64,000 bases of DNA from Naegleria gruberi (Eukaryota). The notes under the pieces are model-generated. The model worked only from the letters and a program-made list of their open reading frames with translations. It was not told the DNA's origin and did no database searches. The position numbers were made by a program, and so were the translations under genes. Positions 56,897 through 63,382 of the stretch are shown here, in pieces; the stretch's first letter is position 1; each line of letters starts with the position of its first letter. Location of the stretch: assembly GCA_000004985.1 (NCBI GenBank), contig GG738885.1, one strand, 5' to 3'.

Positions 56897-58084
56897 ATGT
56901 TCACCATTGCTGCTTCACTGGTGTTGGCCTATGTGGGTGTCTGTTTCATTTGGGATCAAATTCCGTATGTTTCTTCAAATTTCTAATTGTTGACTGTTGA
57001 TTTTTGTGTGATTGTTGCTAATTTGTTGATGATGAACTGTTTAATGAACATTCCTTTGATATGAAATTTGTTACCGATCACAATGATGATGACTATGATT
57101 TGATAATGATGATTCTACTATTATATTAACTATTACATAGTCCTAGAATGAGTGCTAGAAGAAAGATTTCAATGAGTGGATGGGGAGCCCCTTCAGAGCC
57201 AGCCACTTATGGATGTGTCACTATTGATCTAGAGAAAATTGAAGATTTATTGACCAAGGTTTCCGAAAAAATTGGTCAAAAGATTACAATTACTCATTTC
57301 ATGAGTAGAGCTGCTGGTTTGGCAATTGAGGCATGTCCTGAAATTAACTGTAGAATGGTTTTGGGTAAATTGCTTCCAAACAAGACTATTGATGTCAGTT
57401 TGCTTGTTGCTTGTGAAGATCCAAAAACTAAGAAGAATGATTTATCCAATGTCACAATTAGATCAATTAACAAAAAGACTTTGAAAGACATTTCCGATGA
57501 AGTTGTTAAAGGAGCTGAAAAATTGAGAAGTGGAAAAAACGAAAATCACAAAAAGACAAATCAACCAATGTCTTTCTTGCCAACCCTTATTGCTGGTCCA
57601 ATTATTAGCTTTATGGCTTGGTTGGCTTGTGCTTTGCAAATGAATATTCCTGCATTGGGACTTCAAGCCCATCCATTTGGTACTTGTATCATTACATCGT
57701 AAGTATTGATTGTGTTGACATGGTTTGGATGAACTAATATTTCATAGAGTTGCTGGTTTTGGAATTGAGGAAGGATTTGTTCCATTAGCTCCATTCACAA
57801 GATGTCCATTCTTCATTTGTATTGGGTAAGTTTTTTCTCCACCTCAAATGAATTTTAATTTCATTTCGGATAGTTTGGCCAAGAGTCAACCAGCTGTCAA
57901 TGAACAAACTGGACAAATTGAAGCTAGAAGACAAGTTAAAGTTACTGCCACCACTGACCATCGTTTCGTAGATGGTAAGGAAGTTGGAAAATTAGTTAAG
58001 AAATTTGTGGACGTCTGTACTAATGTTGAAAAGTACTTTACTGTTGATGAGGAATCTAAAAACTTTGTTGAAAAGAAGCACTAA
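56897..58084 (+). CDS. Membrane-anchored protein with a 2-oxoacid dehydrogenase acyltransferase (E2-type) catalytic domain and no lipoyl domain. 4 exons (about 56897-56964, 57140-57698, 57748-57825, 57874-58084)
   Basis: N-terminal TM MFTIAASLVLAYVGVCFIW. Catalytic-domain blocks ITITHFMSRAAGLAIEACPEIN (compare [22 protein letters not shown]) and the DHRFVDG active-site motif (DHRVIDG in E2). Introns GTATGT...CATAG (175 nt), GTAAGT...CATAG (49 nt), GTAAGT...GATAG (48 nt) keep the frame. Confidence 0.55.
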
Positions 58085-58150
58085 TTTAGTTATAATTTAT
58101 TATAAACATAAAAATATTAATCTAGTTAGATGATTTAATCTGTTGTAATC

Positions 58151-59374
58151 CTAGTTGAATTTGAAAAATTGTTGAAAGTGATCCTTAAGTAACTCTTCAC
58201 ACTTTTCTCTGCTTAATTCCTCCTCTATGGTCGCACCTATTTCGGATAGAAATGATTTTACAATCAATAAATTGTCATTCATGCTCTCTATTGATTGGAA
58301 ATCAACAATTGGTCTTGCATCCAATTCCAATTCGTCATCAATTAATTGGAAGGTAAATGTTGTAGACCACACAAATTTGCACACCTCCTCAATACCAGAT
58401 GATACTCTAGGTGTGCTGGTACTGCTGATTTCTTGACCAATTTTACTGCCACTACTGCATAACTTTTCTGTTCTGTAGTGAACTACCTCTATTGAGGAAT
58501 TATTAAAGTACAATTCTACAACCCACATTCTTCCATCAAATAATCGAACCTTTCCTCCAAACTCTGATTTGAATTTAGATTTGACATCCATCACTGATTG
58601 TGAGATTGATTCTTGTTGCATGCAACTCAATATCTTTAAAATGTTTTTAAAAGTATTCAATCTGTGGGGTTTTAATTCCAATTCCTTCCAAACATTCTCC
58701 ATTGTTGAAATCATATCATTCTTAATAGTTTCAACAGATAGTTCCTCACCCTCATCCTGACTATTAGTATTGAATAAATCTGCTCGGCAACACTCTACTA
58801 AACCTAGATTTTGAAATAATTGACCAAAAAGTCTCAGAATTGCCTCTTCAATTTCATAATTTGATGGAGAAGATGATTCAACAAGTTCAATTCCATCAAC
58901 TTTCATTTTTGGAATTAATCTCACAATATCTGATGCTATTAATTTAAAAGTATCACCAGTCATGGATACATCACTCGCATTATCAATCAGATCAAATCTT
59001 GATGATATTATTGCATTCTCAATTTTGCTATTTTTCGAAATGGTAACATTATCCTCTGGTTGATCCTCTACTTTCTGATATTGAAGTGAATTTGATAGTG
59101 TTCTAACTGATTTTCGTATAGTTTCCGATTGATTAGCAATCATTTTGGCATTCGAATCAGAGACATCATCCACCACTACAAGACTTTGTTTTAAATCAAT
59201 TGTAATAATTGATGAATCGTTAGAATTAGAATGAGAGTGAGTTCCTGTTGATGATGATGAAGATTTATCAACGTGTGATTGTTGTTGTTGTTCCTCACCT
59301 TGATCTAATTCATCCTCCTCCTCTTGATCTTCCTTTCGGTTAGAAGAACAAACAACCATAGCTTTGAGAAACAT
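58151..59374 (-). CDS. Hypothetical protein (407 aa) with acidic/Q-rich N-terminus
   Basis: Intact ORF. No domain recognised. Confidence 0.4.
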   Translation of the reverse strand: MFLKAMVVCSSNRKEDQEEEDELDQGEEQQQQSHVDKSSSSSTGTHSHSNSNDSSIITIDLKQSLVVVDDVSDSNAKMIANQSETIRKSVRTLSNSLQYQKVEDQPEDNVTISKNSKIENAIISSRFDLIDNASDVSMTGDTFKLIASDIVRLIPKMKVDGIELVESSSPSNYEIEEAILRLFGQLFQNLGLVECCRADLFNTNSQDEGEELSVETIKNDMISTMENVWKELELKPHRLNTFKNILKILSCMQQESISQSVMDVKSKFKSEFGGKVRLFDGRMWVVELYFNNSSIEVVHYRTEKLCSSGSKIGQEISSTSTPRVSSGIEEVCKFVWSTTFTFQLIDDELELDARPIVDFQSIESMNDNLLIVKSFLSEIGATIEEELSREKCEELLKDHFQQFFKFN

Positions 59375-60486: not shown

Positions 60487-62101
60487 TTAATTCTTTTTTA
60501 AAATTATTATTTGTCTTCCTATTCTAGAATCATGAGTTAAGTGCATATGGAAGAATCGTTGATGTAGAGTAAAGTTGTGTTGTTGGATGAGAAATTCGGC
60601 AACAGATTGAACACTGTGATGATCATACATTACTACATAATGTGCTTCTTTGTGTGTCTTGGATACTTTCTGTACAAACTCTAGAGGATTATTGTAGAAT
60701 CTATCAGCTTGTGAATCATCTCCATCAAAAGGAGAGCAGTCCAAGTGGAATAGCTTAATATGTCTCGTGGATTGTCTTCCTTCAAATAAGAATGCATGAC
60801 CAGGCAAATGGTGACAAGGCATTAATAAATGAACTACCATATCCTTTTCTTGCCCAGTAACAGGCAATTGTTGTTTGAAGAATTGTTGACTCTCACTTCT
60901 CAAATGATTGACCACCTTAATTGGAGCACTTTGATGAATTCTTCCAAGATAAAATACAGCACCCAGTTGAACAATGGTCATAATTACAAGTAAGAGTCTG
61001 TATCCTCTATCAGTGATATGAACCTTATTGTGAATAAAATCTCCAATTGAAATAAAACAGAGTGGTAAAATTGGATAGATAAATCTAAACTCCTTATGAG
61101 CTTGTAATGAATAGACCAATACTGGTAAGAGAATGACACAATTAAGTTTCCAATATTTTCTACTATATTCCCTATTCACAAAATTAATCCACACATAGAG
61201 AGGGAAATGTGTTAATAACATGACAGGAAATCCCTGAGTAAAATACCAATGCCATGGTTGAGTTCCATATACTAATAAAATCAAGAACAGTAATTATTTA
61301 AAAGAAATGATGAGAAAACATACAATGGGCAAGATTTTCAACAATGTTAAATTTCAAAAAGTTCAAAATTACAATGGTGAATTGTCCATACATATTTGAG
61401 TCAATCTGGATTGAAATTGCAAGCCAAATTATACTATTCAATTAAATATTCCGTTTCCAATAATTATTTTAAGCTCTTAATTATATAATTTCACTTACAC
61501 ATATCCAATGAATGTTAATAAATATTTGAAAATATTCTTCTCCTTAAATAATTGAAACAAAAACAATGGAATATAAATAATGGTACTTGTTGGTCTCACA
61601 ACACATCCAAATCCTGCAAAAAACATCCAGTAATGCCTAAATTTCTTTGAATGATCATGATTATGATGATGGGAGTGACATTTATCATCGTGACATTCAT
61701 CTTGTTGAATTAGATCAACAGGGAATAAATAAATAGCAATTAACACAATATTCATTTCCATAGTATTTGAAAAAGTCCTCACTCCACAATATAAATTAAA
61801 CCAATTAGTCAATGAAATCAATAACTACAAATTCCACAATTGCAATTAAATTAACACATACAGTCAAATAGGCAGTCATTTTCGATTTTAAATACTTGGC
61901 AACAATTAAAAAGAGAAAATAATCTGACAATGCTGTGCACACTGACTGAACAGCAATTGGCATCCAATACGATAAGAAACCCATCAATGATTCATCATTT
62001 CCATATAATTTCTCCACAAAATCCATCACATAATATCCACTAGATAGAATCATTGGATGAAGATATCCTCGGAGAGAGTGTTTAGCATCCCATTCCCATG
62101 G
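60487..62101 (-). CDS. PIGB: GPI mannosyltransferase 3 (PIG-B/Gpi10; GT22 family). 4 identified exons (about 62101-61862, 61824-61501, 61405-61324, 61271-60487); N-terminal exon not found
   Basis: PWEWDAKHSLRGYLHPMI (GT22 TWEW...RSYxHP motif). AYLT|LLISLTNWFNLYCGVRTFSNTMEM (human [28 protein letters not shown]). YGQFTIVILNFLKFNIVENLAH|LYGTQPWHWYFTQGFPVMLLTHFP (human [46 protein letters not shown]). HKEFRFIYPILPLC (human HKEFRFIYPVLPFC). GT-AG introns of 37, 95 and 52 nt. Confidence 0.7.
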
Positions 62102-62104
62102 TAT

Positions 62105-63382
62105 TTATGTGGATGATCGGGAAAGTTCTCTAGCTGCCAAATATTTTGGATGGCTTCTATTGATATTTGTCACAAAGAAAGTTCCCTTAACATCCTTCAT
62201 CTTGACAAGATTTTCCTTTTGCATTTGTTTGAGGAATTTACTCCACTTCTTGTATGTTGATTTCTTAATATCCAAAACTATGTCCTCGCTAAATTCAAAC
62301 ATTTTAGTATAGAATCCACTTCCTTCCATTGGTAATTGATCATCCTCAACACTACTCTTTAAAGCAGTGAGGAAGTATGATTCCAAGAGAGAGTCCATCT
62401 CTTCTGGCTTGATATCAGAAGAACCTTCACCACTTGGCTCTGCTTCATCATCACTACCTTCTACAGTTGACTTTCCTTCTGTAGCCAATGGCGTCACTTC
62501 AACCTTTTCAGTGGTTGGCTGTTCACCATCTTCATCTTCTTCCACAGATAAGATTTCAATAATTTGTGATGTAAATCCAACTGGTTGAGAGTATGTCGAA
62601 GGGGCATGATTCACGCCAAATTGCCACATAAAGTCATTGAAAATATGAACTGTTTCAAAACATTTCCCCTTATCTGCTTTTGAAAATTCATCAAAATCCA
62701 TAATCATGTCACCGATGGCAAATGGGATGGGATTTCCTCTCACTTGAATGCTTCTAATGTCACCCTTCTTGAATGGACCAATTCCTCCATGACTTCCCTT
62801 ATTATTCAATCTTTCTCCTCCAATTAAATTCATATTTTGATTCTTTTGATTTTTACTCACACCAGGTTTCATTAAATCAGCACCTTGCAAAAGATAATGA
62901 GAAACTGGTTGAGCAATATAAATAGTATCCACTAAATTAGGTGCAATTTGAAGAGCAAATATTGTTGGATAGTAAATTTCCTCTTTTTCAATCGAAAAGA
63001 ACATTGGAACATTATCTACAGTAATTACATTAAAAGTTTGAACATCTGATGCTGCTCTCAATTGTTGTTTTTGCAATTGTTGTTGTTTCTTTTTCTTATT
63101 AGGAACATTCTTTCCGACCTGAATTTCCTCTAAAATTGCCTCCGAAGCAGCAGTTTGATGATAAATAACAAACTTTGATAATTCCACATTTTGATTCTTT
63201 GTTGGTACGAGTAATCTCCATGGATTTATTTCATCACTACTAGCACTACCACCCTCTTCATCATCAGCATTAGAAGGTGCTGGAATATTTCGATATTGTT
63301 CTTGTAATTGTTTTAATAATTTTCTACGATCCGAAGATTTTAAATTGTGTGATTGAGTTTGCTTGAGTGTCTTTTTAAACAT
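62105..63382 (-). CDS. eIF2D/ligatin-like protein (N-terminal DUF1947/PUA region through SWIB-like domain), ORF ends before any SUI1 domain
   Basis: MFKKTLKQTQSHNLKSSDRRKLLKQL (human eIF2D MFAKAFRVKSNTAIKGSDRRKLRADV). PUA-like GADLMKPGV. SWIB-like DIKKSTYKKWSKFLKQMQKENLVKMKDVKGTFFVTNINRSHP (human DVKKSSHKKLSKFLQVMQKEGIIKVKELSKGVESIVAVDWKHP). The stop TAA at 62105-62107 is immediately followed, in the same frame, by PIG-B coding sequence. Confidence 0.6.
   Translation of the reverse strand: MFKKTLKQTQSHNLKSSDRRKLLKQLQEQYRNIPAPSNADDEEGGSASSDEINPWRLLVPTKNQNVELSKFVIYHQTAASEAILEEIQVGKNVPNKKKKQQQLQKQQLRAASDVQTFNVITVDNVPMFFSIEKEEIYYPTIFALQIAPNLVDTIYIAQPVSHYLLQGADLMKPGVSKNQKNQNMNLIGGERLNNKGSHGGIGPFKKGDIRSIQVRGNPIPFAIGDMIMDFDEFSKADKGKCFETVHIFNDFMWQFGVNHAPSTYSQPVGFTSQIIEILSVEEDEDGEQPTTEKVEVTPLATEGKSTVEGSDDEAEPSGEGSSDIKPEEMDSLLESYFLTALKSSVEDDQLPMEGSGFYTKMFEFSEDIVLDIKKSTYKKWSKFLKQMQKENLVKMKDVKGTFFVTNINRSHPKYLAARELSRSST

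What the first reader, a model, noticed from the sequence alone, without database searches (positions are those of the whole stretch)
62050..62200. eIF2D-like ORF runs in-frame into PIG-B (GT22) across a single TAA; both genes appear truncated at the junction
On the minus strand the eIF2D-like ORF ends ...SHPKYLAARELSRSST-TAA. The very next codons, in the same frame, encode IPWEWDAKHSLRGYLHPMIL, the conserved TWEW...RSYLHP motif that lies about 45 residues into GT22 mannosyltransferases. eIF2D here lacks the C-terminal SUI1 domain that defines the family. PIG-B lacks its N-terminal exon (first TM and DEYWQ region). No AG acceptor exists between the TAA and PWEW, and no candidate exon is present in the other frames for 300 bp upstream. 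Possible explanations: a deletion or rearrangement fusing the two loci (both then defective), an assembly chimera, or an unconventional gene structure. Two essential housekeeping genes broken at one point is unusual.
Basis: partly seen in the sequence, partly recalled or inferred. Interest (0 to 1): 0.6.

Follow-up and report, generated by a model that had tools for sequence, protein, structure and literature searches.

The report
One-kilobase deletion joining two Naegleria genes
In the Naegleria gruberi reference sequence about 1 kb has dropped out between two neighbouring genes (eIF2D and PIG-B), so both look broken. At least 0.4 kb of the missing piece sits on a small unplaced scaffold of the same genome project, so this is a deletion copy or an assembly fault, not a new gene structure.

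Summary
On the minus strand a 425-aa eIF2D-like ORF without a SUI1 domain ends at TAA (62107-62105). The next codon, in the same frame, starts PIG-B at IPWEW, so PIG-B lacks its first ~67 residues.

The window is Naegleria gruberi NEG-M. In N. fowleri, N. lovaniensis and an environmental Naegleria, a full eIF2D (648-682 aa, with SUI1) is followed after 18-116 nt by a full PIG-B. N. gruberi lacks the equivalent 0.84-1.0 kb.

The breakpoint is at 62126-62123, not at the TAA. Six to seven more PIG-B codons (NFPDHPH, 62127-62107) are read out of frame, and a 1-nt deletion there creates the TAA and the frame coincidence.

The retained parts of both genes show no decay. An exhaustive protein search found the missing eIF2D C-terminus: NAEGRDRAFT_60091, 131 aa, SUI1, 72-74% identical to the other Naegleria C-termini. 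It lies on a separate 3,525-bp N. gruberi scaffold.

So the genome still has the "lost" sequence. The window shows either a deletion-bearing haplotype chosen by the assembler or a misassembly or cloning deletion. Interest is low.

The parts
62123..63382 (-). 5' two-thirds of the eIF2D gene, corresponding to N. fowleri residues 1 to about 449: Pre-PUA, PUA_eIF2D and the eIF2D winged-helix domain. It is intronless and intact up to the breakpoint.
   Evidence: ORF. Pfam. 100% identical to N. gruberi XP_002674307.1 / NAEGRDRAFT_58788. 63-67% identical to Naegleria orthologues over N. fowleri residues 1-451. Identity to the outgroup is only 2-3 points below that of the other Naegleria.
62123..62126 (-). 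Deletion breakpoint. The eIF2D register ends here and the PIG-B register begins. 2-4 nt (A/CTT) are ambiguous and may be microhomology.
   Evidence: Base-by-base match maps against three relatives in the eIF2D and PIG-B registers, and codon alignments. The segment missing from N. gruberi corresponds to 1001 nt in N. fowleri, 973 nt in N. lovaniensis and 843 nt in the environmental Naegleria, computed from the coordinates.
62107..62124 (-). PIG-B-derived codons FPDHPH. They are read in the eIF2D frame as (L)SRSST plus stop, so the apparent eIF2D C-terminal tail is out-of-frame PIG-B sequence.
   Evidence: (tblastn HSP 62127-62107, NFPDHPH against HFPKHPH). 15 of 18 nt are identical to N. fowleri.
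62102..62106 (-). Site of a 1-nt deletion. AAATA stands where relatives have 6 nt (ATC ATT / ATC ATA / ATC ATC, Ile-Ile). The deletion creates the TAA at 62107-62105 and brings the rest of PIG-B into the eIF2D frame.
   Evidence: the PIG-B register shifts by one base between 62106 and 62104.
61862..62104 (-). PIG-B exon remnant starting at IPWEW, which is residue 68 of N. fowleri PIG-B and residue 67 of N. lovaniensis PIG-B.
61499..61824 (-). PIG-B exon 2. It follows a 37-nt GT-AG intron at 61861-61825.
61324..61433 (-). PIG-B exon 3. It follows a 65-nt intron at 61498-61434.
60487..61271 (-). PIG-B last exon with its stop codon. It follows a 52-nt intron at 61323-61272. The deposited model NAEGRDRAFT_70642 (284 aa) covers only part of exon 3 and exon 4.
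   Evidence: Identity to the outgroups equals that of the intact orthologues.

Best explanation
The main-scaffold sequence of the N. gruberi NEG-M assembly carries a simple deletion of about 0.85-1.0 kb within the conserved tandem eIF2D -> PIG-B. The deletion removes:
- the last ~230 codons of eIF2D (linker and SUI1 domain);
- the short intergenic spacer, which presumably carries the PIG-B promoter;
- the first ~60 codons of PIG-B (TM1 and the conserved DEYYQ loop motif).

A 1-nt deletion lies about 17-21 nt downstream of the breakpoint. On this DNA molecule eIF2D would end after five out-of-frame PIG-B codons, and PIG-B would be a null allele.

The deleted sequence is not lost from the genome. 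Its eIF2D SUI1 portion is present on a separate 3.5-kb scaffold of the same assembly.

My preferred reading is that NEG-M, described as heterozygous, carries this deletion on one chromosome copy only. The assembler threaded the deletion haplotype into the large scaffold and left reads from the intact haplotype as a small unplaced scaffold. The cell would then make normal eIF2D and PIG-B from the intact copy.

Shown: the deletion relative to three other Naegleria, the position of the breakpoint, the absence of decay in the retained parts, and the existence of the SUI1 fragment elsewhere in the assembly.

Inferred: that the small scaffold is the allelic intact version, that it also carries the PIG-B 5' end, and that the deletion exists in vivo.

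The confidence of 0.5 is for the heterozygous-allele reading specifically. The broader claim, that the missing DNA exists elsewhere in this genome and this is neither gene loss nor a novel gene structure, I put at about 0.85.
For: - Organism: the window ORF is 100% identical to an N. gruberi predicted protein on a 362,555-bp scaffold.
- Synteny: N. fowleri, N. lovaniensis and an environmental Naegleria contig all have eIF2D (680/682/648 aa, with SUI1), then an 18-116-nt spacer, then PIG-B. In N. fowleri and N. lovaniensis, RPS17e and the 407-aa (410-aa in N. lovaniensis) gene follow, as in the window.
- Collinearity breaks only at the junction: window 62111 corresponds to L001 11353 and window 62104 to L001 12364.
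- Breakpoint and 1-nt deletion are mapped.
- No decay: the eIF2D part is an intact ORF, and PIG-B has three canonical GT-AG introns in correct phase.
- Identity to outgroups is close to or the same as for the intact orthologues: eIF2D 0.42 against 0.44-0.45, PIG-B 0.39/0.42 against 0.39/0.41-0.42. The event is therefore very recent or not fixed.
- Missing piece found: P0139 is NAEGRDRAFT_60091 / XP_002668203.1 from N. gruberi, 131 aa, on a 3,525-bp contig. It matches Pfam SUI1 at 1.4e-11. It is 72-74% identical and collinear to the very C-terminus, including the poly-K tail, of the eIF2D of the three other Naegleria. It has no match in the window.
- Heterozygosity of N. gruberi is reported in the literature (PMC9928731, citing Fritz-Laylin 2010).
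Against: - I could not read the DNA of the 3.5-kb scaffold; the N. gruberi assembly is not in any DNA collection reachable here. So it is not shown that the scaffold overlaps the window's flanks, or that it carries the ~100 eIF2D codons between the breakpoint and P0139, or the PIG-B 5' end.
- The deposited model on that scaffold starts at an internal Met, which suggests a gap or low-coverage sequence there.
- No read-level, RNA-seq or independent assembly data for N. gruberi were available, so a true in-vivo allele cannot be told apart from an assembly or cloning artefact.
Confidence: 0.5

Rival explanations
1. Pure assembly or cloning artefact. No chromosome copy carries the deletion. A deleted or chimeric plasmid clone, or a wrong join of Sanger reads, produced the junction in the consensus. 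The reads that truly cover the ~1-kb segment were left over as the 3.5-kb scaffold.
For: - The missing SUI1 part exists on a tiny unplaced scaffold of the same assembly.
- Both gene remnants are undecayed.
- A 1-nt indel about 17-21 nt from the junction would fit low-quality read ends.
- 2-4 nt of possible microhomology at the breakpoint fits recA-independent deletion in E. coli clones.
- The genome is AT-rich, about 33% GC.
Against: - There are no N bases in the 64-kb window, so the junction is not a scaffold gap.
- At the ~8x Sanger coverage I recall for this project (own knowledge, not checked), a path supported by a single faulty clone should normally lose to the majority path.
- Clone deletions usually give clean junctions without a nearby extra indel.
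- None of this is decisive.
Confidence: 0.35
2. A real deletion that is fixed (homozygous) in NEG-M. The strain makes an eIF2D without SUI1, resembling MCT-1, and has no functional PIG-B at this locus. The SUI1 fragment on the small scaffold is a separate locus, from a duplication or a gene fission.
For: - The junction is in the deposited sequence without gaps.
- From general knowledge, not tested here: eIF2D is dispensable in yeast, and PIG-B is dispensable in cultured mammalian cells.
- From general knowledge: NEG-M is a long-cultured axenic laboratory strain.
Against: - The SUI1 fragment is collinear with the eIF2D C-terminus of the other Naegleria. Its divergence from them (72-74% identity) is similar to that of the N-terminal part (67-68%). 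That is what an allelic remainder of the same gene would look like.
- A fission would not also cut PIG-B inside conserved codons.
- There is no start codon or promoter arrangement for a separate SUI1 gene other than an internal conserved Met.
- There is no sign of relaxed constraint in either remnant.
Confidence: 0.1
3. An unconventional but functional gene structure, such as stop-codon readthrough giving an eIF2D-PIG-B fusion, a bicistronic mRNA, or a distant or trans-spliced PIG-B first exon together with a separately encoded SUI1 subunit.
For: Only the shared reading frame across a single TAA.
Against: - The shared frame results from a 1-nt deletion inside PIG-B codons.
- The 18 nt before the TAA are PIG-B codons read out of frame.
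- No exon encoding the DEYYQ motif or TM1 occurs in any frame of the 64-kb window.
- There is no splice acceptor at the junction.
- Three other Naegleria have two ordinary separate genes here.
- A fusion would place a cytosolic translation factor on a multi-pass ER membrane protein that lacks its first helix.
Confidence: 0.03

Closest known systems
The intact eIF2D -> PIG-B gene pair of other Naegleria: N. fowleri FDP41_002322 plus the adjacent GT22 gene, N. lovaniensis C9374_012628 / C9374_012629, and environmental contig ERZ27315067 k141_2141520
   Same: The gene order, the strand arrangement and, in N. fowleri and N. lovaniensis, the downstream neighbours (RPS17e and the 407-aa gene; 410 aa in N. 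lovaniensis) are the same. Identity is 63-67% for eIF2D and about 50-59% for PIG-B.
   Different: The N. gruberi main scaffold lacks the 843-1001 nt that span the eIF2D 3' third, the spacer and the PIG-B 5' end. It has an extra 1-nt deletion.
Haplotype-specific indels and leftover small scaffolds ('haplotigs') in draft assemblies of heterozygous genomes
   Same: One large scaffold carries the short version, and a tiny unplaced scaffold (3,525 bp) carries sequence that belongs inside it. The organism is reported to be heterozygous.
   Different: The allelic relationship is inferred, not shown, because the small scaffold's DNA could not be read here.
MCT-1 (MCTS1) / DENR, the naturally split counterpart of eIF2D
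   Same: The window ORF keeps the N-terminal PUA-type module without SUI1, and a separate N. gruberi model holds only SUI1. On paper this resembles the MCT-1 + DENR division of labour (general knowledge of these families).
   Different: The window ORF also keeps the eIF2D-specific winged-helix domain. It ends in out-of-frame PIG-B codons rather than at a natural C-terminus. The SUI1 piece is the orthologous eIF2D C-terminus, not a DENR orthologue. This is a resemblance only, produced by a deletion.

Membership tests
eIF2D (ligatin / Tma64) | N-terminal DUF1947/Pre-PUA plus PUA module | tested here: met
   Pfam Pre-PUA 1.8e-10. The precomputed PF26292 PUA_eIF2D is listed for the identical protein P0001.
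eIF2D (ligatin / Tma64) | eIF2D winged-helix (SWIB-like) middle domain | tested here: met
   PF25304 WH_eIF2D 2.6e-25, ORF residues 330-416.
eIF2D (ligatin / Tma64) | C-terminal SUI1 domain on the same polypeptide | tested here: not met
   There is no SUI1 in the 425-aa ORF or anywhere in the window. The orthologous SUI1 segment is on another N. gruberi scaffold: P0139, PF01253 at 1.4e-11. The gene family assignment holds, but the copy in the window is truncated.
eIF2D (ligatin / Tma64) | Orthology with full-length eIF2D of close relatives at the syntenic position | tested here: met
   63-67% identity over N. fowleri residues 1-451, with conserved neighbours.
PIG-B / GPI mannosyltransferase 3 (GT22, GT-C fold) | Match to the Alg9-like GT22 family over the membrane core | tested here: met
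   PF03901 matches on three exon pieces, 2.9e-07 to 2.3e-30, covering profile positions 43-413.
PIG-B / GPI mannosyltransferase 3 (GT22, GT-C fold) | Closest named relatives are PIG-B rather than ALG9, ALG12 or PIG-Z | tested here: met
   The named hits are almost all GPI mannosyltransferase 3, PIGB, APTG1 or 'phosphatidylinositol glycan class B' at about 1e-47 to 1e-82; one weak hit (P0136) is annotated as an ALG9-type enzyme. PDB ALG9 scores only 5e-09.
PIG-B / GPI mannosyltransferase 3 (GT22, GT-C fold) | N-terminal TM1 followed by the conserved acidic loop motif (ADEYYQ in Naegleria), thought to be catalytic in GT-C enzymes | tested here: not met
   The window copy starts at IPWEW. No [PAS]DE[YFW][YFW]Q motif occurs in any frame of the window. 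Relatives have the motif at residues ~27-52.
Haplotype-specific deletion with allelic leftover scaffold | The deleted sequence is present elsewhere in the same assembly | tested here: met
   NAEGRDRAFT_60091 on a 3,525-bp contig. This holds for the last 131 codons of eIF2D only.
Haplotype-specific deletion with allelic leftover scaffold | The small scaffold overlaps both flanks of the junction, and reads support both versions | not testable with these tools
   N. gruberi DNA other than the window is not in any searchable collection, and no read data are available.

The most novel reading that the evidence does not exclude
The deletion is real and fixed, or at least expressed, in NEG-M. The strain would then run on an eIF2D split into an MCT-1-like N-terminal protein (PUA + winged helix) and a separately encoded SUI1 piece, and would have lost PIG-B function at this locus. 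That would be a natural experiment on eIF2D modularity and on GPI-anchor dependence in a free-living amoeba.
Probability: 0.07. Interest if true: 0.4.

Novelty: not a real feature. Interest (0 to 1): 0.08.

Why it matters
The value is mostly practical. Two N. gruberi reference gene models are truncated fragments: NAEGRDRAFT_58788 (eIF2D without SUI1) and NAEGRDRAFT_70642 (a 284-aa PIG-B tail). A third model, NAEGRDRAFT_60091, is the orphaned eIF2D C-terminus.

Comparative studies that score gene or domain presence from this proteome would wrongly record N. gruberi as lacking a complete eIF2D and a catalytically competent PIG-B. If the deletion is a true heterozygous allele, it is an ordinary structural variant in a heterozygous laboratory strain.

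Tried and rejected
- Exact-sequence look-ups for contigs encoding the window's eIF2D ORF, RPS17e, P0001 and P0139 all returned nothing. The N. gruberi assembly and N. gruberi read sets are not in that index. I could therefore not find independent contigs across the junction or read the 3.5-kb scaffold.
- A word-indexed search used a chimeric alignment of the missing segment, made of the eIF2D C-terminus plus the PIG-B N-terminus from three species. It found no N. gruberi protein. The exhaustive HMMER search then found the SUI1 fragment.
- tblastn of full-length orthologues, of P0139 and of PIG-B N-termini against the whole window, plus a motif scan, found no relocated exon.
- A PDB sequence search could not separate PIG-B from ALG9 and ALG12. 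The names of database relatives did.
- Literature searches for eIF2D or PIG-B in Naegleria and for the locus tags and accessions returned nothing. The 2010 genome paper and the 2011 review are not held. A haplotype/scaffold search gave nothing relevant.
- An alternative genetic code with TAA as a sense codon was considered and rejected. Long standard-code ORFs are found throughout, and the orthologues end with ordinary stops.
Full report
**What is in the sequence.** On the minus strand, ORF 63382..62105 encodes 425 aa ending ...SHPKYLAARELSRSST, with TAA at 62107-62105. The next codons in the same frame read IPWEWDAKHSLRGYLHPMIL. Pfam finds Pre-PUA and the eIF2D winged-helix domain (residues 330-416) and no SUI1. 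The downstream pieces match the GT22 family only from profile position 43.

**Organism and normal arrangement.** The ORF is 100% identical to a Naegleria gruberi predicted protein (NAEGRDRAFT_58788, XP_002674307.1) on a 362,555-bp scaffold. The orthologues are 680 aa in N. fowleri, 682 aa in N. lovaniensis and 648 aa on an environmental Naegleria contig. All three carry SUI1.
- In all three, eIF2D is followed on the same strand by a full-length GT22 gene after only 116, 97 or 18 nt.
- In N. fowleri and N. lovaniensis the next genes are RPS17e on the opposite strand and a 407-aa gene (410 aa in N. lovaniensis), exactly as in the window.
- In Willaertia the two genes are not adjacent.
- tblastx shows the window is collinear with N. 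fowleri and N. lovaniensis except at one point. Window 62111 pairs with L001 11353 and window 62104 with L001 12364, so 6 nt stand against about 1 kb.

**Anatomy of the junction.** Codon and base-level comparison with the three relatives gives this picture:
- The eIF2D register holds down to about 62124.
- The PIG-B register begins at about 62126-62125 and runs through 62106 in a different frame: (N)FPDHPH against HFPKHPH, HFPQHPH and YFPNTTH in the relatives. 15 of 18 nt match N. fowleri, and tblastn found the match independently.
- The register then slips by one base. AAATA (62106-62102) stands where the relatives have six bases for Ile-Ile.
- From 62104 the register continues in the frame of IPWEW.

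So the breakpoint is at 62126-62123, with 2-4 ambiguous bases that may be microhomology. The apparent eIF2D tail "SRSST*" is PIG-B sequence read out of frame. The TAA and the frame coincidence both result from the 1-nt deletion.

The missing segment corresponds to 1001 nt in N. fowleri, 973 nt in N. lovaniensis and 843 nt in the environmental contig (from the coordinates). It comprises about 230 eIF2D codons (linker and SUI1), the spacer, and about 60 PIG-B codons (TM1 and the ADEYYQ motif). None of it is elsewhere in the window: there is no SUI1-like match, no DE[YFW][YFW]Q motif in any frame, and no N bases.

**State of the remnants.** The GT22 gene is a PIG-B orthologue. Its named relatives are almost all GPI mannosyltransferase 3, PIGB or APTG1. 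Its remaining four exons splice cleanly through three canonical GT-AG introns of 37, 65 and 52 nt, giving a 487-aa open frame.

Relative-rate comparisons show no meaningful extra divergence on the N. gruberi branch:
- eIF2D part: 0.42 identity to Willaertia, against 0.44-0.45 for the other Naegleria.
- PIG-B part: 0.39/0.42 to two outgroups, against 0.39/0.41-0.42.

Two genes that had been dead for long would not look like this. The event is very recent, not fixed, or not real.

**The missing piece exists in the same genome project.** An exhaustive HMMER search with N. fowleri eIF2D against 1.84 billion representative proteins returned a 131-aa protein, P0139, matching residues 553-680 at 72% identity.
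- It is NAEGRDRAFT_60091 / XP_002668203.1, "SUI1 domain-containing protein [Naegleria gruberi]", on a contig of only 3,525 bp.
- It matches Pfam SUI1 at 1.4e-11.
- It is collinear to the very C-terminus, including the poly-lysine tail.
- Its identities to N. fowleri, N. lovaniensis and the environmental species are 0.72-0.74. The N-terminal part shows 0.67-0.68.
- It has no match in the window.

It is therefore the orthologous eIF2D C-terminus of N. gruberi, stranded on a small unplaced scaffold.

**Interpretation.** The window does not show a new gene structure or the loss of two genes from the organism. It shows a ~1-kb deletion that is specific to the sequence placed in the large scaffold. 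Two readings remain that I cannot separate with the tools at hand.
- *(a) Heterozygous deletion allele; I give this about 0.5.* The assembler threaded the deletion haplotype into the main scaffold, and the intact haplotype survived as the 3.5-kb scaffold. N. gruberi is reported to be heterozygous (PMC9928731). A large deletion with short microhomology and a nearby 1-nt indel is a typical end-joining scar.
- *(b) Assembly or cloning artefact; about 0.35.*

A fixed deletion with the SUI1 piece at a separate locus is possible but poorly supported (about 0.1). Functional readthrough, fusion or trans-splicing models are contradicted by the out-of-frame PIG-B codons before the TAA and by the lack of any alternative first exon (about 0.03).

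On the deleted molecule, eIF2D would lack SUI1. PIG-B would lack its promoter, start codon, first helix and the conserved acidic motif, which makes it a null allele.

**Limits.** I could not read the 3.5-kb scaffold or any N. gruberi reads. The following are therefore inferred: that the scaffold overlaps the window's flanks, that it holds the ~100 eIF2D codons between the breakpoint and P0139, and that it holds the PIG-B 5' end. The capped word-indexed search for these pieces was uninformative. The literature searches found nothing on this locus.

**Verdict.** The finding is ordinary. Its use is as an annotation warning for three N. gruberi gene models.

Noticed in passing
window 57848-59374, compared with L001 16819-17811 and L003 16692-17687: In N. 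fowleri and N. lovaniensis a DnaJ gene lies between the 407-aa gene and the 2-oxoacid dehydrogenase gene. It has no counterpart in the N. gruberi window, where only about 70 nt separate the two flanking ORFs. This is a clean whole-gene presence/absence difference.
   Followed up: no
window 61499-62104 (minus strand): The deposited N. gruberi PIG-B model (NAEGRDRAFT_70642, 284 aa) starts at an internal Met in exon 3, which leaves the two upstream exons unannotated. An N. fowleri nr entry (P0021, 288 aa) is cut at the same Met.
   Followed up: partly
window 61825-61861 (minus strand): The PIG-B intron is only 37 nt long (GTATGT...TTTGTAG). The neighbouring introns are 65 and 52 nt. The splice phase and exon junctions agree with the N. 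lovaniensis protein.
   Followed up: partly
window ~61650-61700 (minus strand): There is a histidine-rich insert (HDDKCHSHHHNHDHS) in a loop of N. gruberi PIG-B. The relatives have unrelated sequence at this position.
   Followed up: no
L004 7101-7120 (environmental Naegleria contig ERZ27315067 k141_2141520): In this species the eIF2D stop codon and the PIG-B start codon are only 18 nt apart, against 97-116 nt in N. lovaniensis and N. fowleri. The PIG-B promoter must therefore lie inside the eIF2D coding region, or the two genes are co-transcribed.
   Followed up: no
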